Made by a program: the position numbers and the translations under genes
Shown here: positions 5,203 through 24,000 of the stretch, in pieces
How the letters are laid out: the number at the start of each line of letters is the position of its first letter
How positions within the stretch are numbered: position 1 is the stretch's first letter
Notes under the pieces: generated by a model
Database searches by the model: none
The model's input: only the letters and a program-made list of their open reading frames with translations
Told to the model about the DNA's origin: nothing
Source: Acidianus brierleyi
GTDB taxonomy: Archaea > Thermoproteota > Thermoprotei_A > Sulfolobales > Sulfolobaceae
Assembly (NCBI RefSeq): GCF_003201835.2
Contig: NZ_CP029289.2
Span: forward strand, 2,510,378-2,534,377
Direction: 5' to 3'
Length of the DNA stretch: 24,000 nucleotides

Positions 5203-5540
5203 GTGAACTACCATGCCCTAACGGGCGTGGCTTCCTGCTTCAAAGCCGAGGCTTGCCAAAGGTAGAGGTCTCAGCTCCACAGGCACTAAGGGTCGTTCCG
5301 ACCCCGAGCACTAATGTGAACCCACAGTATCCCAATATGGGACTGTTGAATGGAGCAGAGGCGTACCACATAGACCCTCGCTTTAACCAAGGCGTCTCAG
5401 TGACGCTTACTCCGTCAGTGACTGCCATTAAGAGAATATTTGAAAAATACGTATTTAAATGTAACCACAAAGGGGGCAATCCATCTCCACCCTTACGGAT
5501 GGAGTCTTCCACCCCCTTTGAACCCCTTGTTCAGATAAAA
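5203..5540 (+). repeat. GC-rich structured repeat, copy B (simple form: 5' GTGAACTAC, B-type interior, 3' hairpin CAAAGGGGG...CCCCCTTTG, tail GAACCCCTTGTTCAGATAAAA)
   Basis: Near-identical to the reverse complement of 738-1012. Dense local stems are visible: ccatgccc/gggcgtgg, gggtcg/cgaccc, gcgtc/gacgc and caaaggggg/ccccctttg. ORFs are open on both strands, with a composition unlike the local proteome. Confidence 0.85.
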
Positions 5541-5610
5541 TACTATCGGTAAGGTATATTGACAATTTTCATCTTAAATATTTAAGAACCGCACTTCAGA
5601 TTAATTATTT

Positions 5611-6798
5611 ATGAGTGAGGATTTAATCAAGGCGCTAATCAACAACGACGAATTCAATAAGAAGATAGCTAGTATAGTCTATGAAAAAATTAGAAACGAT
5701 GTTATATTGAATAAATTTGATGATATATATAAAATATTAAATGAGCTAACTAAATCTGTCCAAAAGAACACTGATCATATAATCCTTATATGGGAGAAAA
5801 TGGATCAAACTGATAAGACTATTAATAACATTATACAATCAATTAAGGATAACACTAACGCTATAAAGGAGATGCAAAATGAGGTAAGAACGTTAAATAT
5901 TACAACACAAAAACATACTGAAGCTATAGAGTCTCTTCAGAAAAATATTGATTCACATACGAAAGCAATAGAGACAATGCAGAAAACGTTAGAAAAGCAC
6001 AGTGAAATCATCGAAACACATACGAAAGCAATAGAGACAATGCAGAAAACGTTAGAAAAGCACAGTGAAATCATCGAAACACATACGAAAGCAATAGAGA
6101 CAATGCAGAAAACGTTAGAAAAGCACAGTGAAATCATCGAAACACATACGAAAGCAATAGAGACAATGCAGAAAACGTTAGAAAAGCACAGTGAAATCAT
6201 CGAAACACATACGAAAGCAATAGAGACAATGCAGAAAACGTTAGAAAAGCACAGTGAAATCATCGAAACACATACGAAAGCAATAGAGACAATGCAGAAA
6301 ACGTTAGAAAAGCACAGTGAAATCATCGAAACACATACGAAAGCAATAGAAGAACAATCTAAGGCAATAGAGAAGTTACAAAATGCGATTTTTAGACTAA
6401 GTACAGAGATAGGTGCGTTTACTAATAGAGCAGGTAAAGGTCTAGAGAAAAGTATAATGAATATATATAGAGAAGCGTTAAAATTACATGGTATAGATCC
6501 TTCTAACGTTAAACATGGTAAAATAAAGGATACCCTAGGAATAATAGATAAGGATAAGGAGTTTGAAGTAGACTTTTATGAGACCGATGATTACGTCTAT
6601 GTTTTTGAAGTTAAGAACTATGCAGATGAGGGAGTTTTAGAACAAATGAGAAATAGAATTAAATTGTTTTCCGCATTATATAAAAAGCCTATAAAATTCT
6701 ATATTATATCTAACTTTATAGAAAAATCTGTAAAAGAAGAAGCAGAAAAAGAAGCAGCAATAATTATTACATCTCATGTTGTAGAAGACGAAGCATAA
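5611..6798 (+). CDS. Coiled-coil protein with a 21-aa tandem-repeat array and a C-terminal PD-(D/E)XK-like domain (resembles the archaeal DUF3782 + PDDEXK_10 architecture)
   Basis: 395 aa. The N-terminal two thirds are heptad-like (KAIETMQKTLEKHSEIIETHT x6). The C-terminus, EFEVDFYETDDYVYVFEVKNYA...KFYIISNFIEKSVKEEAEKEAAIIIT, fits a D...(D/E)xK nuclease-fold core. The family assignment is from memory only. Confidence 0.7.
   Translation: MSEDLIKALINNDEFNKKIASIVYEKIRNDVILNKFDDIYKILNELTKSVQKNTDHIILIWEKMDQTDKTINNIIQSIKDNTNAIKEMQNEVRTLNITTQKHTEAIESLQKNIDSHTKAIETMQKTLEKHSEIIETHTKAIETMQKTLEKHSEIIETHTKAIETMQKTLEKHSEIIETHTKAIETMQKTLEKHSEIIETHTKAIETMQKTLEKHSEIIETHTKAIETMQKTLEKHSEIIETHTKAIEEQSKAIEKLQNAIFRLSTEIGAFTNRAGKGLEKSIMNIYREALKLHGIDPSNVKHGKIKDTLGIIDKDKEFEVDFYETDDYVYVFEVKNYADEGVLEQMRNRIKLFSALYKKPIKFYIISNFIEKSVKEEAEKEAAIIITSHVVEDEA
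5954..6350 (+). repeat. Perfect 63-bp tandem repeat, 6.3 copies, in frame inside the 5611-6798 CDS
   Basis: Units start at 5954, 6017, 6080, 6143, 6206, 6269 and 6332 (partial, 19 nt). Each encodes HTKAIETMQKTLEKHSEIIET. The antisense ORF 5937-6326 also repeats exactly, which indicates nucleotide identity between units. Confidence 0.95.
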
Positions 6799-9301: not shown

Positions 9302-9550
9302 GTGAACTCCTCCTACGGCGATTTTCACGAACAACACTCCTAAACAAGAAGACAAGCTTTACAAGAGTGAGACTAAGAAGACTAGGTATAGGGGAGGAGG
9401 TGGTGAAGGCCCTCAAGTTGACCCCAATCAAGTAGTTCCTTCGGCTCTTCAAGCTATCGCCTAGCCATGTTAGAGGCAAAGCATGTGGAGCCTATCCATC
9501 TCCACGGATGGAGTCTTTCGCCTCGTTTGAACCCCCTGTTAAGATAAAAA
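9302..9550 (+). repeat. GC-rich structured repeat, copy C (5' GTGAACTCC, C-type interior 9311-9493, shared 3' hairpin module, tail GAACCCCCTGTTAAGATAAAA)
   Basis: The first and last ~57 nt of the 9311-9493 interior match the reverse complement of the corresponding ends of 341-737, and the 3' module 9494-9535 matches 295-340. The middle differs (about 68 nt here versus about 280 nt in copy A). The 3' module also matches 5481-5526. Confidence 0.85.
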
Positions 9551-9621
9551 AAGTAAAATAAGTTAAAATTTTTATTTTATCTGTAAAATAAGTTTTTTTA
9601 ACTATAACAACATATTTAATT

Positions 9622-10762: not shown

Positions 10763-11001
10763 TATTATAATGTATGTTTAGATTATATAAATTTTATGAA
10801 TAAAAAATTTTCTCTACTTAGTATTGAATATTAAATTATTAAATCTTTATATTGATATCTTCCTTTCACGTTTCTATTATTATAAGTTAGTTAAACCCAG
10901 TTAAAGAAAGACAAAATTTAAAAACTATATTATTTAGTTAATTTTATACAATCGGATTTGACACTTTACATTTATATATCGTGACTATAATATTTTTTCC
11001 T

Positions 11002-11403
11002 ATGAACCAAGAGATTATAAGAAGAAACCTTAATGATATTAAATCTTCAGGAATATTATTAGAAAAAATTCTCCCTAATATATATGTTAACAGATATAAC
11101 ATCTTTTCTGACATTTTTATAGTAAGCGAGAAAAAAGGAATGTATGTCCATTGTATGAAACATTGTATTAAAGGTACTGGTTGTGTCTTGTATGAAACAA
11201 CTCTAAGTGAGAAAATTCCAGATATTATAAACAAGGAATTTATAGAAAAACTAGAACTTAAACCAATTTATATTAGTAAAAAAGCATTAATATCAATAAA
11301 CACTTTGAGAGAAGCTTCAAATACTCTAAAGAAAGAAGAATTAAAAATAGCTTCAGAGAAAATAATTCAGAAAATTAATGAAGGATTATTTGACAATTTT
11401 TAA
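11002..11403 (+). CDS. Hypothetical protein (133 aa from ATG 11002; the track's GTG start is 10981)
   Basis: Composition is protein-like (K/I/E/L rich). Preferred over the overlapping antisense ORF 10944-11234, which is low-complexity and hydrophobic. Confidence 0.5.
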   Translation: MNQEIIRRNLNDIKSSGILLEKILPNIYVNRYNIFSDIFIVSEKKGMYVHCMKHCIKGTGCVLYETTLSEKIPDIINKEFIEKLELKPIYISKKALISINTLREASNTLKKEELKIASEKIIQKINEGLFDNF

Positions 11404-11496
11404 CTTATACGTTATAATTGAATTTTTCTCTTGTCAATTCTTTGAAAACTTTTGTCAAAGAATACCCTTTTAAGGAATACTAAATTATCCTAAAAT

Positions 11497-11799
11497 ATGG
11501 ACGATCTTACAAAAATAATTAAGGACAGAACAAGAAGAGAGATTTTACTTTATCTTCATAATAGAGGAAAAGCTACATATTCCGACATTCTTCATGATAT
11601 GAAATTATCTACAGGAAAACTAAATTATCACTTAAAAGTTCTAGAACCATTCCTCTCGAAAGAAAACGAATACTATAAACTTAATGATAAGGGCAATCAA
11701 TTAGCAGAAATAATCCTTAGTTTAGGAGATAACAAAAATTCCTCAGAAAAGTATTACCGCAATTCTTTGCTATTATTTCATTTATTCTCCTCATTATAA
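11497..11799 (+). CDS. ArsR/SmtB-type wHTH regulator domain; probably the N-terminal part of a frameshifted HTH-membrane fusion
   Basis: RTRREILLYLHNRGKATYSDILHDMKLSTGKLNYHLKVLEPFL is the classic ArsR HTH (xxLxYHLxxL). Confidence 0.75.
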   Translation: MDDLTKIIKDRTRREILLYLHNRGKATYSDILHDMKLSTGKLNYHLKVLEPFLSKENEYYKLNDKGNQLAEIILSLGDNKNSSEKYYRNSLLLFHLFSSL

Positions 11800-12308
11800 G
11801 TTCAGAGATTTTATATTCTTCTGGATTTTATATAATTTATTCTATTTCAATAATTACTTTATTAATATCTTCATTTCTAAATTATGTACAGGAAGAAGTT
11901 GAAGGTTTTGAAAATTTTATGATTTTATTAGCACTATTTTTCCCTTATGTCTTCTTCGTATTGAGGGGAAAAATTTTCAGTTTTTTACCATTATATTTAA
12001 TTATAAGCCCTTATTATCATAATATTACATTTAGTTACTATATTAATGAACTAATACCTACAGCAGTATATTATTTTGGAGTACTCCCAAGATTTGTGAA
12101 CTACAACGTAAGGTTGATGAGTATAGTTTGGGGAATAATTTTAATTGCAGATTCTTTATCTGGATTTATTGATTTGACTCCTTTATTACTTGGACTATCT
12201 ATTCTTGTAAATAAGGAATCAACATATAATTATAAATTGTTTTTATTAATTACCATAGTGTTAATAATTTCAGCTACGTTATTTAAAATATTTATTCTAC
12301 AGTATTAA
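11733..12308 (+). CDS. Multi-pass membrane domain (track ORF 11919-12308); the frame is open back to 11733 with no start codon
   Basis: This frame reads VLPQFFAIISFILLIISSEILYSSGFYIIYSISIITLLISSFL before the first ATG (11919), giving extra TM-like segments. It overlaps the end of the ArsR frame by 67 nt. Confidence 0.5.
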   Translation, partial: QKFLRKVLPQFFAIISFILLIISSEILYSSGFYIIYSISIITLLISSFLNYVQEEVEGFENFMILLALFFPYVFFVLRGKIFSFLPLYLIISPYYHNITFSYYINELIPTAVYYFGVLPRFVNYNVRLMSIVWGIILIADSLSGFIDLTPLLLGLSILVNKESTYNYKLFLLITIVLIISATLFKIFILQY

Positions 12309-12709
12309 TCTGGGTTTATGCTATAAAAATCAGTATTTTCTAATAGTATTCCCCTAGGTATTTTAGCAAATAGATATCTTAAGAACGGTAATGAGGAATA
12401 AGAAAGCTCTATATATTTATTTCCATCTATAAATAGTTCTATCTTATTTCTATAATGATCTACATAAGCTATAAAATTAGAGAATTTTAATAAATGGACT
12501 AAATCCACGACTGTTTTATCTCCTACAAGTAAGTGTCCAAAATTCTCTGTAAAATAGTCTAGGTCTACTTCTTCTACATCATAAACTATCATAGGTCTAG
12601 AAAATCTTATATTAATTCCTTCAAGGTCTTCTAATTGCCTTACTTCCCTTACTTTTCCATCGTAAATAAATTTCTTATCTTTAGTTAGAAACAGAACCTT
12701 GAAAGCCAT
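12305..12709 (-). CDS. Hypothetical protein (134 aa)
   Basis: An ORF with protein-like composition. Its stop overlaps the convergent 12308 stop. It is the last gene in the minus-strand run that includes the SWIM/AAA+ cluster. No motif recognised. Confidence 0.5.
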   Translation of the reverse strand: MAFKVLFLTKDKKFIYDGKVREVRQLEDLEGINIRFSRPMIVYDVEEVDLDYFTENFGHLLVGDKTVVDLVHLLKFSNFIAYVDHYRNKIELFIDGNKYIELSYSSLPFLRYLFAKIPRGILLENTDFYSINPD

Positions 12710-12861
12710 AAAATTTATGTGGATTTGGTATAATTTATAGTTTTCTTATGAAGATTATTAATAAGATATGAATATAGTCATTACAAATTAATATATATAC
12801 TATATATAGTCTATAGAAACTATATAGATCTAACAAAGTATTTTCGTCATATCATTTGCGT

Positions 12862-13083
12862 TTACTGTATTTTTTTATTACATCTTATTTTTCTCATGCA
12901 AATCTTTATATGTTTACAATTTCCTCTAATGGCGAAACCTTTGCAACTACAACTTGCTTTAACATATTTTCCAAGTTCTATCCTAACTATGTAACTCTTT
13001 AAAGGATTTTTCTCACTATTTATTGCAAACAAGTAAATTCTTGAATCCATATAATTTCTTTTAATTATGAGATATGGATACAT
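12862..13083 (-). CDS. Small SWIM zinc-finger protein (73 aa)
   Basis: YIVRIELGKYVKASCSCKGFAIRGNCKHIKIC fits the SWIM signature CxCx(n)CxH. Confidence 0.7.
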   Translation of the reverse strand: MYPYLIIKRNYMDSRIYLFAINSEKNPLKSYIVRIELGKYVKASCSCKGFAIRGNCKHIKICMRKIRCNKKIQ

Positions 13084-13115
13084 ACATTAAAAGTAAAGAT
13101 TTTAAAAAATCAGAC

Positions 13116-14471
13116 TTACCCGATATTATTTACAGTCTCATTGCCAGTTTTTTGTACAAAAGACAACGTGAACTCCTTAATTTTTTCTTCAAGTATTTCC
13201 GAATCTCCATGAAGTATTCTTATAGCTTCTAATGTAGGCACTTCTATTTTAGTTACTTTAGACTCATCTACTTTCAGTTTCATAGAATTTGTAATAACGA
13301 ACCTATTGCCTACAATGTACTCTTTTTTATCATGCTCCACTTTTTCCAATTGTGATAATAATTTTATATCTTCGTCTTCTTCCTTATCGTCATTCATCAA
13401 TTTTACAATTCCTACAAATGCTAAGTCGTCCTTTATAAAGAATATTCCAGCTACAATGTATTTCCCTTTAACTTCTATCCTTTTACCTCTTAAATGCACA
13501 TAAGATAATCCTAATTCTTTCGACATTGAGCTAAGGCCTTCTCTAATAAACTTCTCTAAATTCTTAGACTCATCGTCAGGATTCTTTAATGTATGTGAAC
13601 TCCTTAACTTTTCTTTTATGCATTCTGCATTATCACCGCATTCTTTATCAAATTTTTCTATCTGCGATTTAATAAACTGTAATATAGAGCTAACAGTATT
13701 TAATTCCCTTCCCTTCCACATTGAAAGTACTATTGGAAATATCTCTTCGCTTATAGGATTACAATAAGCGTCTACTATTTCTTTTATATCTTCTGGGGTG
13801 AGGGCACTATCGAGGGATATTCTACTTTCGTCCAATCTCCTCCTTATTGCAAGATCTGTAACCTTACTATAAGAATCTGTAGGTATTGCCATTATAACTG
13901 GTATTCCCAACCCTGCATTTATTAATCTATGAATTTTAGGAATGTGACTTTCTCTTACTTCGTCAATAAGTAACGCAACTTTAGTTATTCCGTTAAGGTC
14001 GGAAAGTAAGTTCAACATCCCGTCAAAGTCCTTATTATAGGAAAGGCAATAAATCCTCAAATATTTATCGTCGTATTTATCGCATACTTTTACTAACCAA
14101 TCTTCAAGTTTAGTTCCAGTAATTTTTTTCCAAAATGAATACCCGAATTTCTTCCTATTCTCATTTAAATAGTTAAAAGTTAATTCCTTCAAGTTATATG
14201 GACTGATTTTACTCCAAAATTCTTCCTCTATTTCACCCTTACTAGCTAGATCTAGGTAAAAGGACAACTCACTTACATTTTCTTGAGTTTTCTTTAATAT
14301 TGTAGTTTTACCCATTCCAGGCTGTCCTATTATAGAAGCTACATCATTGTTCTTTATAGCATCCAGAGTTTTTTGCAAATATTTTGTATAAGTAGGACCT
14401 ACCAAAATAACGTTCTTACTGTTCCATGTTGTCACTGTAACTTTCGGTATATTACATAACATTTCATTCAC
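13116..14471 (-). CDS. AAA+ P-loop ATPase of the Orc1/Cdc6 / archaeal-ATPase type with a distinct C-terminal domain
   Basis: Walker A GQPGMGKTT; Walker B ALLIDEV; sensor-1-like IMAIPT. LAIRRRLDESRISLDSALTPEDIKEIVDAY resembles the Orc1/Cdc6 box VII region. The likely true start is ATG 14462, preceded by GGGGTGA (14468-14474), 1 nt after the upstream gene's TGA stop. Confidence 0.8.
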   Translation of the reverse strand: MNEMLCNIPKVTVTTWNSKNVILVGPTYTKYLQKTLDAIKNNDVASIIGQPGMGKTTILKKTQENVSELSFYLDLASKGEIEEEFWSKISPYNLKELTFNYLNENRKKFGYSFWKKITGTKLEDWLVKVCDKYDDKYLRIYCLSYNKDFDGMLNLLSDLNGITKVALLIDEVRESHIPKIHRLINAGLGIPVIMAIPTDSYSKVTDLAIRRRLDESRISLDSALTPEDIKEIVDAYCNPISEEIFPIVLSMWKGRELNTVSSILQFIKSQIEKFDKECGDNAECIKEKLRSSHTLKNPDDESKNLEKFIREGLSSMSKELGLSYVHLRGKRIEVKGKYIVAGIFFIKDDLAFVGIVKLMNDDKEEDEDIKLLSQLEKVEHDKKEYIVGNRFVITNSMKLKVDESKVTKIEVPTLEAIRILHGDSEILEEKIKEFTLSFVQKTGNETVNNIG

Positions 14472-14967
14472 CCCTTCTCTTAATTATACCATATATGGAA
14501 CCTTTCCTAACATAACCTTCCTCTCCACCAGCAATAAAATCGTAATTATCTTCAATATGGCGCTTTAATTTAGAATAAAACTCTTCCTTGTCCATGCCCA
14601 ATTCTATCCTAATTGCCTGCAAATGTGCATATCCTAGATTATCCTTAACCTTGTCATATACAGCATCAAAAGTATCTTCACTAATTTTCTTTTTTTCTGA
14701 AATATATTCTTGTAATTTCCTTATTTCGTCTTTAATTTCTCTTATTTCGTTTAATATTATGTCAGTCTTATCTATCTCTAGAATTTCGTATGCTTTACCT
14801 CCTCCACTTTCAATTTTTCTAATTTTACCACTTTTTTCCATTTTTTCTAGTACGTTGAGAAGTTCTTCTCCGTCACACTTTAATTTCCTCTTAATTTTCG
14901 AAAAAGCTACTGGTTTACCGTCGTAAAGTTCCTTTAATGTAGCAATAATCTCATCCTCTGAAAGCAT
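14464..14967 (-). CDS. Two-domain protein: N-terminal wHTH plus a conserved uncharacterised C-terminal domain (paralogue of 15038-15598)
   Basis: N-terminus: IIATLKELYDGKPVAFSKIKRKLKCDGEELLNVLEKMEKSGKIRKIE (wHTH-like). C-terminus: FDAVYDKVKDNLGYAHLQAIRIELGMDKEEFYSKLKRHIEDNYDFIAGGEEGYVRKGSIYGIIK, shared with the neighbouring gene. Confidence 0.7.
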   Translation of the reverse strand: MLSEDEIIATLKELYDGKPVAFSKIKRKLKCDGEELLNVLEKMEKSGKIRKIESGGGKAYEILEIDKTDIILNEIREIKDEIRKLQEYISEKKKISEDTFDAVYDKVKDNLGYAHLQAIRIELGMDKEEFYSKLKRHIEDNYDFIAGGEEGYVRKGSIYGIIKRRGE

Positions 14968-15037
14968 GTCCTATATCTTTATTCAAATCCTTTAAATACC
15001 ATAAGATAAGTAATACTTTAGATTTTTTATGAAAAAA

Positions 15038-15598
15038 TTATTTTAACTTTATTATACCATACAGATTTCCTTTTCTCGTTAACCCTTCTTCTCCTCCAGG
15101 ATATAGCTGATATTTACTTTCTATATATTCCCCATACGTAGAATAGAAGGCTTCTTTAGTTAATCCCATTTCGATTCTTATTGCGGAAAGTTTAGAATAT
15201 CCGTCTGAATCCTTAGTCTTTCCGTAAATCTCGTCAAATTTCTTTGAATCTACAGTATTCTCCTTTAAGAGTATTTTTCTTATATCTTGAATATAATTTA
15301 TGATATCTGAAAACATTTCATTTATCTTTGGTTCATCAATTTTGTTTTCTTTAACCTCAAGCTTATTCTCCTCATGATCCTCGTTATTCTCTTGTTTAAC
15401 GTAATACAGTATAGAATTACCAGATTTTTCCTTAATTAATTTCCCTTCTTTTACTAACTCTTCTAAAAAGTCGTCTACTTGTTTACTTCTTCCTATTTTA
15501 TCCTTAATTCTCGTCTTCGGTACTTTATCTATACCTTCCTTCTGTAATTGAATTATAATGTTTAAAATATCTTCTTTAGAAATAGTTTTAGCCATCAT
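15038..15598 (-). CDS. Two-domain protein: N-terminal wHTH plus a conserved uncharacterised C-terminal domain (paralogue of 14464-14967)
   Basis: N-terminus: ILNIIIQLQKEGIDKVPKTRIKDKIGRSKQVDDFLEELVKEGKLIKEK. C-terminus: FDEIYGKTKDSDGYSKLSAIRIEMGLTKEAFYSTYGEYIESKYQLYPGGEEGLTRKGNLYGIIK. An acidic/lysine-rich linker lies between them. Confidence 0.7.
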   Translation of the reverse strand: MMAKTISKEDILNIIIQLQKEGIDKVPKTRIKDKIGRSKQVDDFLEELVKEGKLIKEKSGNSILYYVKQENNEDHEENKLEVKENKIDEPKINEMFSDIINYIQDIRKILLKENTVDSKKFDEIYGKTKDSDGYSKLSAIRIEMGLTKEAFYSTYGEYIESKYQLYPGGEEGLTRKGNLYGIIKLK

Positions 15599-18926: not shown

Positions 18927-19262
18927 CCCAGTCTCATAAGGGGATACTGTAGGCTCACTGCTCGGAGTCGGAACGATCCTCATTGTCTTTGTAGAAATAT
19001 AAAAAATCTAATATGGTACTTGGAAATTTATAAAAATTATCATATAATTATCTAACTAATTACATTAAATCTTTACGAACCACTAATAACAAATAAAAAT
19101 TATTTTTACTAATTAGATTTTGGGTCTACCGTAACCAAGGCGGTGACGCTTACTCCGTCAGTGACTGCCATTAAGAGAATATTCGAAAAAAGAAGTATTA
19201 AGCCTTACAAAGGGGGCTATCTATCTCCACGGAGTCTTCCGCTCCCTTTGAACCCCTGATCA
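18927..19262. repeat. GC-rich structured repeat, copy D: decayed and rearranged (18927-18985 in minus orientation, 19131-19262 in plus orientation, AT-rich filler between)
   Basis: 18927-18985 matches the reverse complement of 5290-5350 with many substitutions. 19131-19262 matches 5384-5535, including the 3' hairpin (caaaggggg...ccctttgaacccctg), but has a 5-nt deletion relative to copy B (ggcgTCTCAgtgacgc versus ggcggtgacgc). Confidence 0.6.
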
Positions 19263-19358
19263 TAATAAAGTCTTATAGTGCAAACTTACAAGATTTTTGG
19301 CTCTTTACAGACAATATTCAACGAACAAAATTTAATATATGGATTTTTTATATCACTT

Positions 19359-21557: not shown

Positions 21558-21574
21558 TATTCTATCGGATATAT

Positions 21575-24000
21575 CTTTCAATTCCTTTTTGGATGAAACT
21601 CCACTTTTTCGTAATTTCTCATAAAGCATTTAAAGATTTCTTTCAATTCCTTTTTGGATGAAACCCCGGCGAAGAGCCCTTGCTGGGCTCTCCCGGGTAC
21701 GAGGACTTTCAATTCCTTTTTGGATGAAACGTAGTTTAGGCGTAGAGTTGGAGGGCGTTATGCCCTACTTTCAATTCCTTTTTGGATGAAACTGCGTTGG
21801 TATGCAGAAATATTGCCTATAGTTACCGAAGACTTTCAATTCCTTTTTGGATGAAACAAATATTCAAACTGATAACGGCGGAATATATTTAGCTTACTCT
21901 TTCAATTCCTTTTTGGATGAAACGTATGGTATTATCAAATGGTGAAAAAAATGGGAAACGAAACCTTTCAATTCCTTTTTGGATAAAACTTGAGGACTTC
22001 CAGGGGGGATATTACTATATCCCCTACAACTTTCAATTCCTTCTTGGATAAAACTTATTCAACACCTGCAGCAAGGTATCCAGCTAATTCAACTTTCAAT
22101 TCCTTCTTGGATGAAACAAAAGGTCTAATTCAAAGAAAGAGCGTAAAGGATATCATAAACTTTCAATTCCTTCTTGGATGAAACATTGTAAATGGGTTTA
22201 GCCCAAGCATGTTAAGTCAAAATTCCTTTCAATTCCTTCTTGGATGAAACTTATGAGTTTAAGAGAGACGCCATAAGGAAGCTAATGGAAAAATACTTTC
22301 AATTCCTTCTTGGATGAAACAATGAATAAGTATGTGACAAACGGGTTCAGCCCGAGTATGATACTTTCAATTCCTTCTTGGATGAAACATACTATACGTA
22401 TCGTATGACGACGGGTTTGAAAAAGACTTCTTTCAATTCCTTCTTGGATGAAACACATGATGAATATGAACCGTTTGCAAGCGCTAAATTAGAAATCTTT
22501 CAATTCCTTCTTGGATGAAACCTGAGGTTATTGTCTTAAAACTTAATGATTTTGATAAGATAACTTTCAATTCCTTCTTGGATGAAACTTCTTCTCCTCC
22601 GACATGTCTCATTCACCTCTCATATTTAACACTTTCAATTCCTTCTTGGATGAAACCTGTTTATTTCTTTTAATTCCAATAGATTTTTTGTACTGATTCT
22701 TTCAATTCCTTCTTGGATGAAACCATTTAAATATTAGTTAGGTCTTAATGTAACATGATAAACACTTTCAATTCCTTCTTGGATGAAACAAGTGATGGCA
22801 AGGGAAGGCACAAAAATGATGAGTATTGACTTTCAATTCCTTCTTGGATGAAACCTTATATCATTCGGCTGTTCCTCTGGGGTCTATAGAAAAACCTTTC
22901 AATTCCTTCTTGGATGAAACTACAATACGGTTCATTACCAGACGCGTTAATAAAATCACTTTCAATTCCTTCTTGGATGAAACTCAAAATAAGTCAAATT
23001 TAGATCAACAATTAAATCAAATTTTCTTTCAATTCCTTCTTGGATGAAACTAAAATCAAGGGGGGAAATATGGTTGAGTTTAACAAAGCGGCTTTCAATT
23101 CCTTCTTGGATGAAACATATCGATTTGTCACATAAGAATTTTGACTTTTTAACTTTCAATTCCTTCTTGGATGAAACGTCCCTAAGTGAATTACTTAGGG
23201 ACATAGTGTTTGAATATATCTTTCAATTCCTTCTTGGATGAAACTTCCCAAAGAATGCCAATGGGTGGCGGAGCTGGAAAAAATTCTTTCAATTCCTTCT
23301 TGGATGAAACATAAATTCATTAACTACCGTAACCGTTGGGCAATATATAACTGCCTTTCAATTCCTTCTTGGATGAAACCTTAAAGAAATTGCAAATTGG
23401 GTTGGGGCAAGATCATTTAGCTTTCAATTCCTTCTTGGATGAAACATAATGACATACTAGTAATAGTGTACCCAAGTCTGCATGATATCTTTCAATTCCT
23501 TCTTGGATGAAACCTACTGAGCTCGAAAGTTTTGGGTGTGCCTCTGGGGTCTATCTTTCAATTCCTTCTTGGATGAAACAGTAAGGACTTACAGTGCGGA
23601 AACCGGGAAACCGGTGGCCTTTCAATTCCTTCTTGGATGAAACTTGCTACCTTCATTTGTGAGCCACCTCAACGACAATTATTTCTTTCAATTCCTTCTT
23701 GGATGAAACAGGAGGACTATAAACGCACTATATATTGACGTTGTAATGATCTTTCAATTCCTTCTTGGATGAAACACAAAAAGGGATGGAGGTTTTTTTA
23801 CAACCTCCTAAAAAAGACTTTCAATTCCTTCTTGGATGAAACTCTTCTGCTTCCATAAAATCATATCCAGCAAAAAGTTTTCGCTTTCAATTCCTTCTTG
23901 GATGAAACAGAAAAATTAAAGATAAAATTAGCTAAAGAATAATAAATCTTTCAATTCCTTCTTGGATGAAACCTATTTAGTGTCACAATGCAACGACTGG
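21575..24000 (-). CRISPR. CRISPR array, 37 repeats of 25 nt in the window (it continues past 24000), spacers 36-45 nt. Transcribed-strand repeat is GTTTCATCCAAGAAGGAATTGAAAG
   Basis: Repeats start at 21575, 21640, 21706, 21768, 21833, 21899, 21965, 22030, 22093, 22160, 22226, 22296, 22364, 22430, 22497, 22564, 22632, 22699, 22765, 22830, 22896, 22959, 23026, 23092, 23153, 23220, 23286, 23355, 23421, 23489, 23555, 23619, 23685, 23751, 23818, 23884 and 23948. The minus-strand reading ends in ATTGAAAG, the known 8-nt crRNA 5' handle source in Sulfolobales. Variant repeats at the 21575 end mark the trailer. Confidence 0.98.

What the first reader, a model, noticed from the sequence alone, without database searches (positions are those of the whole stretch)
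12862..15598. Co-directional SWIM / Orc-Cdc6-like AAA+ / twin wHTH cluster of unknown function near the CRISPR locus: candidate undescribed system
Four minus-strand genes are tightly packed. Two are paralogous wHTH-plus-unknown-CTD proteins (15038-15598 and 14464-14967). The third is a 451-aa AAA+ ATPase whose likely ATG (14462) lies 1 nt after the upstream TGA, with its GGGGTGA ribosome site inside the upstream gene; this indicates translational coupling. The fourth is a 73-aa stand-alone SWIM zinc finger, 32 nt further on. The ATPase has Walker A/B and an Orc1/Cdc6-like box VII segment. Its C-terminal 130 residues (YVHLRGKRIEVKGKYIVAGIFFIKDDLAFVGIVKL...EYIVGNRFVITNS) are not a canonical Orc winged helix and look like a small beta-rich, possibly nuclease-fold-derived module. 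I do not recognise this combination of nucleic-acid-binding proteins with an NTPase as any named defence, partition or replication system. It lies about 6 kb from a large CRISPR array, in a region rich in mobile repeats.
Basis: inference. Interest (0 to 1): 0.7.

Follow-up and report, generated by a model that had tools for sequence, protein, structure and literature searches.

The report
Conserved Sulfolobales ATPase/DNA-binder operon, plus local extras
The four genes are real, but only two of them (a double winged-helix DNA-binding protein and an Orc/Cdc6-like AAA+ ATPase) form a unit found in every Sulfolobales genus examined; published work on Sulfolobus acidocaldarius links that unit to cell division, not to virus defence, and its biochemical function is still unknown.

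Summary
The window is Acidianus brierleyi chromosome. All four ORFs, the 1-nt stop/start junction, the GGGGTGA ribosome site and the SWIM finger are confirmed.

The "four-gene system" does not hold. In 13 loci from about 10 Sulfolobales lineages, only the 167-aa protein and the ATPase are always adjacent, with conserved translational coupling. The second winged-helix paralogue, the SWIM gene and the 134-aa ORF occur only in A. brierleyi and two close relatives. T6 terminator tracts and separate TATA boxes set them apart as separate transcription units.

The core pair is orthologous to S. acidocaldarius Saci_1229/Saci_1228. The literature reports these as induced at mitosis/cytokinesis and repressed after UV; they remain uncharacterised.

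- **ATPase:** an orphan AAA+ family with nearest folds Orc/Cdc6, STAND and MuB. It has six invariant cysteines and an unidentified β-rich C-terminal domain.
- **Partner:** winged helix, coiled coil, winged helix.
- **Promoter:** an aCcr-box-like palindrome sits at a fixed position upstream of the TATA box.
- **Mobile elements:** stand-alone copies of the partner's C-terminal half occur in ARV3, ATV2 and plasmid pDL10.
- **Defence:** no defence-system signature was found.

Most likely this is a cell-cycle-linked, ATP-driven DNA-binding complex.

The parts
14464..14967 (-). Core gene 1: 167-aa partner protein (wHTH_B; orthologue of Saci_1229). Layout: N-terminal winged helix, long coiled-coil helix (residues 67-92), then a highly conserved C-terminal winged helix.
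   Evidence: ORF. 36 orthologues across Sulfolobales. AF2 pLDDT 86.5 with two wH domains and a long helix. Foldseek hits to wH regulators, PSV gp04 and ScpB. Invariant residues cluster in the C-terminal half. Exact match to A. brierleyi AWR95497.1.
13116..14462 (-). Core gene 2: 448-aa AAA+ ATPase (orthologue of Saci_1228), starting at the ATG at 14462.
   Evidence: ORF; start fixed by the alignment. 52 homologues, all Sulfolobales. AF2 pLDDT 83.9. Foldseek top hits are ORC/Cdc6, NLR/STAND, RuvBL and MuB. Exact match to AWR96041.1.
14468..14474 (-). GGGGTGA Shine-Dalgarno-like site inside the end of wHTH_B, 5 nt upstream of the ATPase ATG. The stop and start codons are separated by 1 nt.
   Evidence: Sequence read. 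An equivalent purine-rich stretch and an overlap-to-6-nt junction occur in 13 of 13 loci.
14301..14327 (-). Walker A motif (GQPGMGKTT).
   Evidence: Invariant G49-T57 in 25 sequences.
13959..13976 (-). Walker B motif (LLIDEV; D170 and E171 invariant).
13836..13844 (-). Invariant R210-R211-R212 (DLAIRRRLDE): the box VII / arginine-finger region.
   Evidence: The position after helix 207-215, before strand 217-219, comes from the AF2 model.
13239..13511 (-). β-rich C-terminal domain of the ATPase (about residues 321-411). It carries a conserved polar cluster: Y324, H326, R328, K330, E379, H380, T394, N395. The fold is not identified.
   Evidence: Secondary structure; conservation; no PDB sequence relative.
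15009..15017 (-). Palindrome AGTATTACT, about 10 nt upstream of the TATA box of wHTH_B. It matches the published aCcr-box consensus.
   Evidence: The core GTAWTA lies at -48 to -51 from the start codon in 8 of 12 orthologous promoters (5 lineages); background is 0.15 per 80 nt. Consensus taken from PMC9976878.
14991..14998 (-). TATA box (TATTTAAA) of the wHTH_B-ATPase operon, starting 31 nt upstream of the ATG.
   Evidence: Sequence. Equivalent GGTATTTAAGG-type boxes are seen in the orthologous promoters.
15032..15037 (-). T6 tract directly after the wHTH_A stop codon. It is a likely archaeal terminator separating wHTH_A from the core operon.
   Evidence: Sequence. That oligo-T tracts terminate archaeal transcription is established knowledge.
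15038..15598 (-). Lineage-specific paralogue wHTH_A (186 aa), with the same wH / coiled-coil / wH layout.
   Evidence: ORF. Only 3 clusters in 5.8 billion proteins, all from the A. brierleyi clade. It branches outside all B orthologues, next to pDL10 ORF96. dN/dS 0.05-0.14.
13104..13109 (-). T6 tract after the ATPase stop codon. It overlaps a TATA-like TTTTTTAAAATC about 25 nt upstream of the SWIM ATG.
   Evidence: Sequence.
12862..13083 (-). Lineage-specific 73-aa stand-alone SWIM zinc-finger gene (CxC...CxH). It is probably not part of the core unit.
   Evidence: Pfam SWIM E=3e-5, above the gathering score. Present only in L016 and L017. dN/dS about 0.1. No phage match.
12305..12709 (-). Lineage-specific 134-aa ORF with no detectable family.
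   Evidence: No hits. Present only in L016 and L017. dN/dS 0.09-0.15.

Best explanation
The real functional unit is a two-gene, translationally coupled operon: the 167-aa tandem winged-helix protein (14464-14967) plus the 448-aa AAA+ ATPase (13116-14462). It is the A. brierleyi orthologue of S. acidocaldarius Saci_1229/Saci_1228. It is a chromosomal module present in every Sulfolobales genus sampled, and in S. acidocaldarius it is expressed around chromosome segregation and cytokinesis.

Proposed mechanism (inferred, not shown):
- The partner protein dimerises through its central coiled coil and binds DNA with its variable N-terminal winged helix.
- Its strongly conserved C-terminal winged helix docks the ATPase.
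- The ATPase then assembles on DNA as an arginine-finger-dependent oligomer, in the manner of Orc/Cdc6 or MuB, and acts as an ATP-driven switch or remodeller of chromosomal DNA at the M-D stage.

The second paralogue (wHTH_A), the SWIM gene and the 134-aa ORF are insertions specific to the A. brierleyi clade and are transcribed separately. At most, wHTH_A is an alternative adaptor. The locus is not a defence system.
For: Shown here:
- The pair is adjacent in 13 of 13 loci from Acidianus, Ca. Aramenus, Metallosphaera, Sulfurisphaera, Saccharolobus, Sulfolobus and a distant metagenomic lineage, while the flanking genes differ.
- The stop/start junction runs from a 4-nt overlap to a 6-nt gap, with an SD-like stretch, in 13 of 13 loci.
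- Both genes are under strong purifying selection (dN/dS 0.03-0.04).
- All catalytic AAA+ motifs are invariant.
- In the AF2/Foldseek comparison the top hits are ORC/Cdc6 (7jgr_A 4.5e-6; 2qby_A 9.4e-6; 1fnn TMq 0.39) and the MuB filament (8xvb, TMt 0.56).
- More distant family members hit AAA_22 above Pfam's gathering score and ATPase_2 below it.
- The partner model is wH / long helix / wH. The helix region gives coiled-coil-type profile hits.
- The ATPase is absent from the phage and plasmid collections.
- No PADLOC family fits.
- The neighbours in the window are housekeeping genes.
- Orthology to Saci_1228/1229 rests on exact accessions AAY80574/AAY80575 next to the photolyase gene Saci_1227, whose published primer maps in L014.
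- A conserved promoter palindrome lies at a fixed position in 5 lineages.

From the literature:
- Saci_1228/1229 are repressed 4-fold and 2-fold after UV.
Against: - No biochemical or genetic data exist for either protein.
- The expression data are for S. acidocaldarius only and were read second-hand. The primary paper, Lundgren & Bernander 2007, is not held.
- Foldseek TM-scores to ORC/Cdc6 are low (0.31-0.39), so the clade assignment is loose.
- DNA binding, the B-ATPase contact and oligomerisation are all inferred; no complex model could be run.
- No sensor-2 arginine is conserved in the lid.
- The promoter motif is short and AT-rich. The degenerate consensus occurs 47 times in the window against 32 expected, so only its positional conservation carries weight.
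- A-B-ATPase-SWIM-orf134 synteny persists in two relatives at dS 0.4-2.3, so some functional link of the extra genes cannot be excluded.
Confidence: 0.6

Rival explanations
1. The pair is a transcription-regulator module. The winged-helix protein is a classical repressor or activator (it is annotated GntR/Lrp/HxlR-like in some records). The ATPase is a STAND-type signal-sensing switch that controls it, like MalT or AfsR split into two polypeptides. The pair would then regulate a cell-cycle or stress regulon rather than act mechanically on DNA.
For: - Weak nSTAND3, NB-ARC and NACHT hits for the ATPase and its distant relatives.
- NLR and Apaf-like structures are among the top Foldseek hits.
- The partner's best structural matches are MarR/ArsR/Lrs14-type regulators.
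- The invariant cysteines and the conserved polar pocket in the C-terminal domain could be a sensor.
- Another Orc1/Cdc6 paralogue, Orc1-2, is known as a regulator in Sulfolobales (established knowledge).
Against: - STAND hits are below the gathering score and cover only the P-loop (24.4 vs 27.2 bits).
- There are no sensor repeats.
- The N-terminal, presumed DNA-reading winged helix is the less conserved half, while the half with no obvious DNA role is nearly invariant.
- No target genes are known.
Confidence: 0.2
2. All four (or five) co-directional genes form one novel nucleic-acid-targeting system (defence, partition or mobile-element maintenance) linked to the nearby CRISPR locus.
For: - The order A-B-ATPase-SWIM-orf134 is retained in two related genomes at dS 0.4-2.3, although other flanks changed.
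- All five genes are under purifying selection.
- The C-terminal half of the wHTH family is also found in two viruses and a plasmid.
- The SWIM-orf134 block is AT-rich and looks like an insertion.
Against: - SWIM, orf134 and wHTH_A are absent from 10 other loci that keep the core pair.
- The wHTH_A family has only three clusters, all from this clade.
- T6 tracts and separate TATA boxes divide the cluster into separate units.
- There is no meaningful PADLOC hit.
- The ATPase is found in every genus sampled, on chromosomes, and is absent from the phage and plasmid collections.
- Only the A. brierleyi window has a CRISPR array nearby, with HypF in between and no cas genes.
Confidence: 0.07
3. The pair is a specialised replication-licensing or helicase-loading module: an Orc1/Cdc6-derived ATPase with a Cdt1/WhiP-like double winged-helix partner. 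It would act right after division to reset origins.
For: - ORC/Cdc6 chains are the best structural matches.
- The partner has two winged helices, as Cdt1/WhiP does (the comparison is from knowledge, not tested).
- The reported expression peak falls just before G1/S (PMC6101591).
Against: - No Cdc6_C winged helix and no Pfam or NCBIfam Orc/Cdc6 hit.
- The C-terminal domain is β-rich.
- Sulfolobales already have three Orc1/Cdc6 proteins and WhiP (knowledge).
- TM-scores are only 0.3-0.4.
- In none of the 13 loci is the pair next to a recognisable replication-origin gene, going by the called genes.
Confidence: 0.08
4. The ATPase is the archaeal counterpart of the HrpA-type DEAH helicases, as suggested in the literature for Saci_1228.
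For: Statement in PMC6101591, citing earlier work.
Against: - No helicase, DEAH or HrpA family appears in the Pfam, NCBIfam, PDB-sequence or Foldseek results.
- The fold is a single AAA+ module, not a two-RecA-domain SF2 core.
Confidence: 0.02

Closest known systems
Saci_1228 / Saci_1229 of Sulfolobus acidocaldarius (P-loop ATPase plus 'GntR-like' neighbour; induced at mitosis/cytokinesis, repressed by UV; PMC6101591)
   Same: Orthologous pair: ATPase 57% identity over 99% of its length, partner 56%. Gene order, tight junction and domain layout are the same.
   Different: A. brierleyi adds an upstream paralogue (wHTH_A) and a downstream SWIM/orf134 insertion. Expression has not been measured in A. 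brierleyi. The published 'HrpA-like' and 'GntR' labels are not supported by the profiles or folds found here.
Orc1/Cdc6 replication initiators (e.g. PDB 2qby, 1fnn, 2v1u)
   Same: AAA+ core with Walker A/B, sensor 1 and a box VII arginine. Best Foldseek matches (E 5e-6 to 1e-4). Both have a helical insertion between strand β2 and Walker B, where the initiator-specific motif sits. The Orc/Cdc6 proteins work together with winged-helix DNA binding.
   Different: - No C-terminal Cdc6 winged helix; instead a β-rich domain plus helices.
- The DNA-binding wH domains are on a separate polypeptide.
- An 80-residue helical insertion, six invariant cysteines and an invariant N-terminal peptide.
- No sequence-profile membership.
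AAA_22 / archaeal ATPase_2 (PF01637, e.g. PABY2304, PDB 2qen) and STAND NTPases
   Same: Distant family members score AAA_22 above the gathering score and hit ATPase_2, nSTAND3 and KAP more weakly. 2qen and NLR/Apaf structures are among the Foldseek hits.
   Different: The window protein reaches no gathering score. It has no DUF234-type or repeat sensor domain. The family is tiny: 40 representatives at E<=1e-3 among 1.84 billion.
MuB / TniB-type AAA+ DNA-bound filaments that work with a separate DNA-binding partner
   Same: Best target-normalised structural match among the AAA+ hits (8xvb, TMt 0.56). The logic of an ATPase plus a separate DNA-targeting protein is the same.
   Different: No transposase or mobile-element context; chromosomal and order-wide. 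The similarity is confined to the ATPase core.
Tandem winged-helix proteins (ScpB 'kite' subunits, PDB 1t6s/2z99; PSV gp04, 2vxz)
   Same: Two winged helices in one small protein; whole-chain Foldseek hits at E 9e-4 to 4e-3.
   Different: TM-scores are only 0.25-0.3. A long coiled-coil spacer is present here. No SMC or kleisin partner is encoded nearby.
aCcr1/2/3 cell-cycle regulon of Sulfolobales and its viral hijackers (PMC9976878, PMC13199686)
   Same: The promoter carries a palindrome (AGTATTACT) that fits the published aCcr-box consensus. As with aCcr1, viruses and plasmids of Sulfolobales carry small homologues of a host cell-cycle-linked protein, here the partner's C-terminal half.
   Different: [quoted passage not shown] Binding has not been tested, and the S. 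islandicus orthologue could not be looked up in the ChIP tables.

Membership tests
Saci_1228/Saci_1229-type operon (Sulfolobales ATPase + tandem-wH pair) | Full-length orthology of the ATPase to Saci_1228 (AAY80574) | tested here: met
   57% identity over 99% coverage to the cluster that contains AAY80574. All motifs and the six Cys residues are shared.
Saci_1228/Saci_1229-type operon (Sulfolobales ATPase + tandem-wH pair) | Partner gene immediately upstream on the same strand, with a coupled junction | tested here: met
   13 of 13 loci. Identity of the S. acidocaldarius genes was fixed through the adjacent photolyase gene Saci_1227.
Saci_1228/Saci_1229-type operon (Sulfolobales ATPase + tandem-wH pair) | Cyclic expression at M/D phase and repression after UV | not testable with these tools
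   Known only for S. acidocaldarius, from PMC6101591. No expression data are available for A. brierleyi.
Orc1/Cdc6 initiators | AAA+ core with Walker A/B, sensor 1 and a box VII arginine | tested here: met
   Invariant GQPGMGKTT, LLIDEV, PT198 and R210-212. ORC/Cdc6 are the top Foldseek hits.
Orc1/Cdc6 initiators | C-terminal winged-helix DNA-binding domain (Cdc6_C) | tested here: not met
   The AF2 model shows eight β-strands plus helices after residue 320. There is no Cdc6_C or Orc hit in Pfam or NCBIfam, and the CTD profile finds nothing in the PDB.
Orc1/Cdc6 initiators | Sequence-profile membership | tested here: not met
   There is no Orc/Cdc6 family at E<=1. Whole-chain TM-scores are 0.31-0.39.
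STAND NTPases (NB-ARC / NACHT / nSTAND) | NTPase domain scoring above the family threshold | tested here: not met
   nSTAND3 scores 24.4 bits against a cut-off of 27.2, over 33 residues around the P-loop only.
STAND NTPases (NB-ARC / NACHT / nSTAND) | C-terminal sensor repeats (TPR, WD40, LRR) or a fused effector | tested here: not met
   No repeat families were found. The model shows a compact β-rich domain.
SWIM zinc finger (PF04434) | CxCxnCxH motif and a profile score above the gathering score | tested here: met
   23.9 bits against a cut-off of 19.6, E=3e-5, residues 31-59. The sequence C-S-C...C-K-H is visible.
Known anti-virus defence systems (PADLOC-DB) | A component matching a defence-system model | tested here: not met
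   There are only weak partial hits: AbiTi at 18 bits over 52 helical residues and mad8 on the P-loop.
Known anti-virus defence systems (PADLOC-DB) | Patchy, island-like or mobile distribution | tested here: not met
   The core pair is in every Sulfolobales genus sampled, on chromosomes. It is absent from the phage and plasmid collections. Only the accessory genes are patchy.
(D/E)xK catalytic residues on the central strands | tested here: inconclusive
   The strand residues at the expected places are variable. The invariant residues are E306, R310, Y324, H326, R328, K330, E379, H380, T394 and N395. The isolated domain could not be fold-searched.
ScpB / kite tandem winged-helix proteins | Two consecutive winged helices | tested here: met
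   In the AF2 model the wH domains span residues 4-62 and 97-164.
ScpB / kite tandem winged-helix proteins | Fold-level match and an SMC/kleisin partner | tested here: not met
   Foldseek gives E 2-4e-3 with TM 0.25-0.27. No SMC or kleisin gene is seen in any of the loci.
aCcr (RHH) cell-cycle regulon | aCcr-box A(T/G)G(A)TA(G)A(T/G)TACN in the promoter | tested here: inconclusive
   There is a full match in the A. brierleyi clade, M. sedula and M. yellowstonensis, and a one-mismatch match in Saccharolobus and S. acidocaldarius, all at -48 to -51. The box lies upstream of the TATA box, and the degenerate pattern is common in AT-rich DNA. Binding is not testable here.

The most novel reading that the evidence does not exclude
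The conserved C-terminal winged helix of the partner protein is the handle by which the cell-cycle ATPase is recruited. Sulfolobales viruses (ARV3 gp05, the ATV2 124-aa ORF) and plasmid pDL10 (ORF96) carry stand-alone 'coiled-coil + C-terminal wH' copies as decoys. These would titrate or redirect the host ATPase and so manipulate the host cell cycle, much as viral aCcr1 homologues do. wHTH_A of A. brierleyi would then be a captured, domesticated copy from a mobile element, which now gives this lineage a second adaptor for the same ATPase.
Probability: 0.15. Interest if true: 0.75.

Novelty: new variant of a known kind. Interest (0 to 1): 0.45.

Why it matters
Sulfolobales are the main archaeal model for a eukaryote-like cell cycle. 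Most of the machinery that couples chromosome segregation to division in these organisms is still unknown.

This pair is a concrete candidate for that missing machinery, for five reasons:
- It is present in every Sulfolobales genus sampled and is under strong purifying selection.
- It couples an AAA+ ATPase to a DNA-binding partner.
- The literature reports its S. acidocaldarius orthologues as transcribed at mitosis/cytokinesis.
- It has a conserved promoter element that resembles the aCcr-box.
- Its partner has homologues in viruses and plasmids.

Genetic tools already exist in S. acidocaldarius and S. islandicus, so the question can be tested directly.

For the genome scan, the practical lesson is that co-directional packing near a CRISPR array wrongly suggested a four-gene defence system. 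Comparative context reduces it to a two-gene core plus lineage-specific passengers.

Tried and rejected
- **Saci_1225.** I first suspected the partner was Saci_1225, a UV-induced, TFB3-dependent gene. This was rejected: gene order relative to the photolyase Saci_1227 and accession order show the pair is Saci_1229/1228. The S. acidocaldarius promoter also lacks an exact ANTTTC motif.
- **Genome-collection scan.** The scan with the ATPase alignment was swamped by the P-loop pattern and returned only 2 loci. Contexts were gathered by exact-protein look-ups instead.
- **Other collection scans.** The viral-contig scan with the partner alignment and two metagenome scans with paralogue ATPases found nothing. 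The genomic context of the divergent paralogue clade (S. tokodaii BAB65863 and others) therefore remains unknown.
- **Zα reading.** The N-terminal wH resembles Zα (32% identity over 59 residues; Foldseek TMt about 0.8). I rejected this reading: by my own reading of the sequences, the Zα tyrosine and tryptophan are not conserved and the aligned Asn varies across orthologues. Pfam z-alpha scores only E=0.32.
- **PADLOC AbiTi hit.** Rejected: 18 bits over 52 residues of a helical linker.
- **PD-(D/E)xK reading of the ATPase C-terminus.** No catalytic triad was found, and the profile search against the PDB returned only a spurious 20-residue RecA match.
- **SegC.** SegC (SSO0033) and the proteasome/CCTF1 papers were checked as possible identities. 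They concern different genes.
- **Essentiality and ChIP data.** For S. islandicus these could not be retrieved. Supplements were either not held or were truncated before the relevant genes.
- **Lundgren & Bernander 2007.** This primary paper is not held.
- **Rfam scan of the window.** No hits.

Full report
**Source and observation.**
The proteins of the cluster match Acidianus brierleyi chromosome entries exactly: AWR95495-AWR95498 and AWR96041, on a 2.95-Mb contig. The four minus-strand ORFs are at the stated coordinates.

An alignment of 25 ATPase homologues shows that all begin M-x-C-x-I-P. The true start is therefore the ATG at 14462, not the GTG at 14471. That ATG lies 1 nt after the TGA of the upstream gene, and GGGGTGA lies 5 nt upstream of it.

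The SWIM gene starts 32 nt after the ATPase stop codon and passes Pfam's SWIM threshold. The two winged-helix proteins are paralogues: 35% identity, and both hit phrog_38850. A CRISPR array of at least 37 repeats starts at 21562.

**What is conserved.**
The ATPase has 52 close homologues, all from Sulfolobales: Acidianus, Ca. Aramenus, Metallosphaera, Sulfurisphaera, Stygiolobus, Saccharolobus, Sulfolobus and Sulfuracidifex. Identities range from 42% to 91%.

I fetched 13 orthologous loci and searched them with all the window proteins.
- The 167-aa protein and the ATPase are adjacent in all 13.
- Flanking genes differ from genus to genus. Examples are glucoamylase and encapsulin in Saccharolobus, MFS transporters and a protein kinase in M. 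sedula, and photolyase in S. acidocaldarius.
- The stop/start junction runs from a 4-nt overlap to a 6-nt gap, always preceded by a purine-rich Shine-Dalgarno-like stretch.
- SWIM, the 134-aa ORF and the 186-aa paralogue wHTH_A are found only in two close relatives of A. brierleyi, whose ATPases are 87% and 91% identical.
- A search of 5.8 billion protein clusters finds wHTH_A in three clusters only, all from that clade.
- In Ca. Aramenus the order is radical SAM, partner, ATPase, DUF2173. The A. brierleyi lineage therefore acquired wHTH_A on one side and a 2.3-kb block on the other. That block is AT-rich (25-26% GC against 31%).

All five genes are under purifying selection (dN/dS 0.03-0.15), so the extras are real genes. 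However, a T6 tract follows the stop codon of wHTH_A, and another follows that of the ATPase. wHTH_B and SWIM each have their own TATA box at leaderless distance. The cluster is therefore best read as four transcription units, of which only wHTH_B-ATPase is an operon.

**Link to published genes.**
In S. acidocaldarius the pair (AAY80575, AAY80574) lies next to a 1293-bp photolyase gene. The published internal primer for Saci_1227 maps inside that gene. The pair is therefore Saci_1229/Saci_1228.

Schult et al. (PMC6101591) make three statements about these genes:
- They are repressed about 2-fold and 4-fold after UV, independently of TFB3.
[quoted passage not shown] The primary cell-cycle paper is not held. 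I found no later functional study. The paper's 'HrpA-like helicase' and 'GntR' labels are not borne out by any profile or fold result here.

**The ATPase.**
No Pfam, NCBIfam, PADLOC or PHROG family is reached. Only P-loop-level hits appear, and there is no PDB sequence relative.

A profile search of 1.84 billion representatives gives 40 hits at E<=1e-3. They fall into three groups:
- the orthologues;
- a divergent paralogue clade also confined to Sulfolobales (S. tokodaii, S. ohwakuensis, M. tengchongensis, M. javensis, HS-7);
- a few proteins from Thermoprotei MAGs.

Those distant members score AAA_22 above threshold, and ATPase_2, KAP and nSTAND more weakly.

The AF2 model (pLDDT 83.9) has the following layout:
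- an AAA+ α/β core;
- an approximately 80-residue helical insertion between strand β2 and Walker B;
- a helical lid;
- a β-rich domain (about residues 321-411);
- two terminal helices.

Foldseek ranks ORC/Cdc6 first (E 5e-6 to 1e-4), followed by NLR/Apaf STAND proteins, RuvBL, MuB and DnaA. Whole-chain TM-scores are only 0.3-0.4.

Walker A, Walker B, a sensor-1 Thr and an RRR box VII are invariant. So are six cysteines and an N-terminal peptide that is modelled with low confidence. The C-terminal domain has an invariant polar cluster but no PD-(D/E)xK triad, and its fold remains unidentified.

**The partner.**
The AF2 model (pLDDT 86.5) shows an N-terminal winged helix, a 26-residue helix, and a second winged helix. 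The helix region attracts coiled-coil proteins in profile searches.

Structural neighbours are MarR/ArsR/Lrs14-type regulators and, over the whole chain, tandem-wH proteins: PSV gp04 and ScpB. Nearly all invariant residues lie in the C-terminal half.

That half also exists as a stand-alone ORF in three mobile elements:
- Acidianus rod-shaped virus 3 (gp05; 41% identity; Foldseek E 2.6e-9);
- Acidianus two-tailed virus 2;
- plasmid pDL10 (ORF96).

In a neighbour-joining tree of the C-terminal halves, wHTH_A falls outside all wHTH_B orthologues, next to pDL10 ORF96. It is therefore not a recent tandem duplicate. The ATPase itself has no match in the phage or plasmid collections.

**Promoter.**
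When orthologous upstream regions are anchored on the start codon, the core GTAWTA appears at -48 to -51 in 8 of 12 promoters, representing five lineages. It lies about 10 nt upstream of the TATA box. The background rate is 0.15 per 80 nt on both strands.

In A. brierleyi the element is the palindrome AGTATTACT (15009-15017). This fits the published aCcr-box consensus (PMC9976878; PMC13199686).

Two cautions apply:
- The degenerate pattern is common in this AT-rich window: 47 matches against 32 expected.
- Most published aCcr1 sites lie downstream of the TATA box.

Only the positional conservation is evidence, and the binding factor is unknown.

**Context and defence.**
The rest of the window encodes MFS transporters, AIM24, MsrA, a haem-copper oxidase subunit, HypF, a B12-type radical SAM enzyme and DUF2173. 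There is no cas gene, and no PADLOC family fits. The other 12 loci were not scanned for CRISPR repeats; among their called genes the only defence-related Pfam marks are a faint Cas_NE0113 hit in L008 and PIN toxin-antitoxin pairs in two loci. The defence-island reading is not supported.

**Interpretation.**
Shown:
- a chromosomal, translationally coupled two-gene operon in every Sulfolobales genus sampled;
- an intact AAA+ catalytic set;
- a tandem-wH/coiled-coil partner;
- orthology to Saci_1229/1228;
- lineage-specific accessory genes.

Inferred:
- The partner dimerises and binds DNA.
- Its conserved C-terminal wH docks the ATPase.
- The ATPase oligomerises on DNA as an ATP-dependent switch or remodeller around segregation and division.

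The main rival is a split STAND-like transcription-regulator module. Weaker rivals are a licensing-factor paralogue, the four-gene system and the HrpA idea. The most novel reading not excluded is that the viral and plasmid half-proteins are decoys for this machinery, and that wHTH_A is a domesticated copy.

**Verdict.**
There is a real functional unit of unknown biochemical function with an Orc/Cdc6-like ATPase, but it has two genes, not four. It is an order-wide chromosomal operon rather than a defence or mobile system. It has been noticed before, though never characterised.

Noticed in passing
window 5954-6350 (inside ORF 5611-6798, + strand): A 63-nt unit is repeated 6.3 times with 100% identity, giving perfect 21-aa repeats in a 395-aa coiled-coil-like protein with no real Pfam family.
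   Followed up: no
window 5370-5570, 9440-9600, 19113-19300: An approximately 170-nt repeated element lies just upstream of three + strand genes. It includes a 48-nt block that is 98% identical between two copies and a hairpin, CCATCTCCACGGATGGAG. It has no Rfam match. It could be a shared promoter/leader or a MITE-like element.
   Followed up: partly
window 21562-24000: The CRISPR array runs off the end of the window. The first seven or so repeats read ...CCTTTTTGG... and the later ones ...CCTTCTTGG..., so the degenerate (older) end faces HypF. There is no cas gene in the window.
   Followed up: no
window 10900-13100: A low-GC block (25-26% against about 31%) holds SWIM, orf134, a 129-aa membrane ORF, a 100-aa ArsR/DUF7347 regulator and a 140-aa ORF. 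It is absent between the ATPase and DUF2173 in Ca. Aramenus (L006), and its content varies in L016 and L017. It is a small hypervariable insertion site.
   Followed up: partly
L012 2173-2478 (ARV3 gp05); L013 2959-3333 (ATV2); L011 2350-2640 (pDL10 ORF96): Two Acidianus viruses and a pRN-type plasmid encode stand-alone homologues (96-124 aa) of the coiled-coil plus C-terminal winged-helix half of the host partner protein. They keep most of its invariant residues.
   Followed up: partly
window ATPase 13116-14462 (residues C6, C130, C142, C237, C278, C284 in 451-aa numbering): There are six invariant cysteines in a cytoplasmic AAA+ ATPase family, which suggests a metal or Fe-S site or a redox switch. 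No model coordinates were available to check whether they lie close together.
   Followed up: no
L003 9368-10849 (M. sedula): A 493-aa Ser/Thr protein kinase gene follows the ATPase after 30 nt in M. sedula. Cell-cycle kinases are known in Sulfolobales, but I did not test whether this one is an orthologue of any of them.
   Followed up: no
window 12789-12829: Nested AT-rich palindromes (CTATATAG-type) lie in the 152-nt spacer between SWIM and orf134. They may be an operator or simply low-complexity sequence.
   Followed up: no
Proteins P0135, P0136, P0138, P0139 (S. tokodaii BAB65863, M. tengchongensis QKR00883, M. javensis, Sulfolobales HS-7): A second, divergent clade of the same ATPase family exists as an extra copy in some Sulfolobales genomes (E 1e-66 to 1e-88 against the family profile). 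Its gene neighbourhood could not be retrieved.
   Followed up: partly
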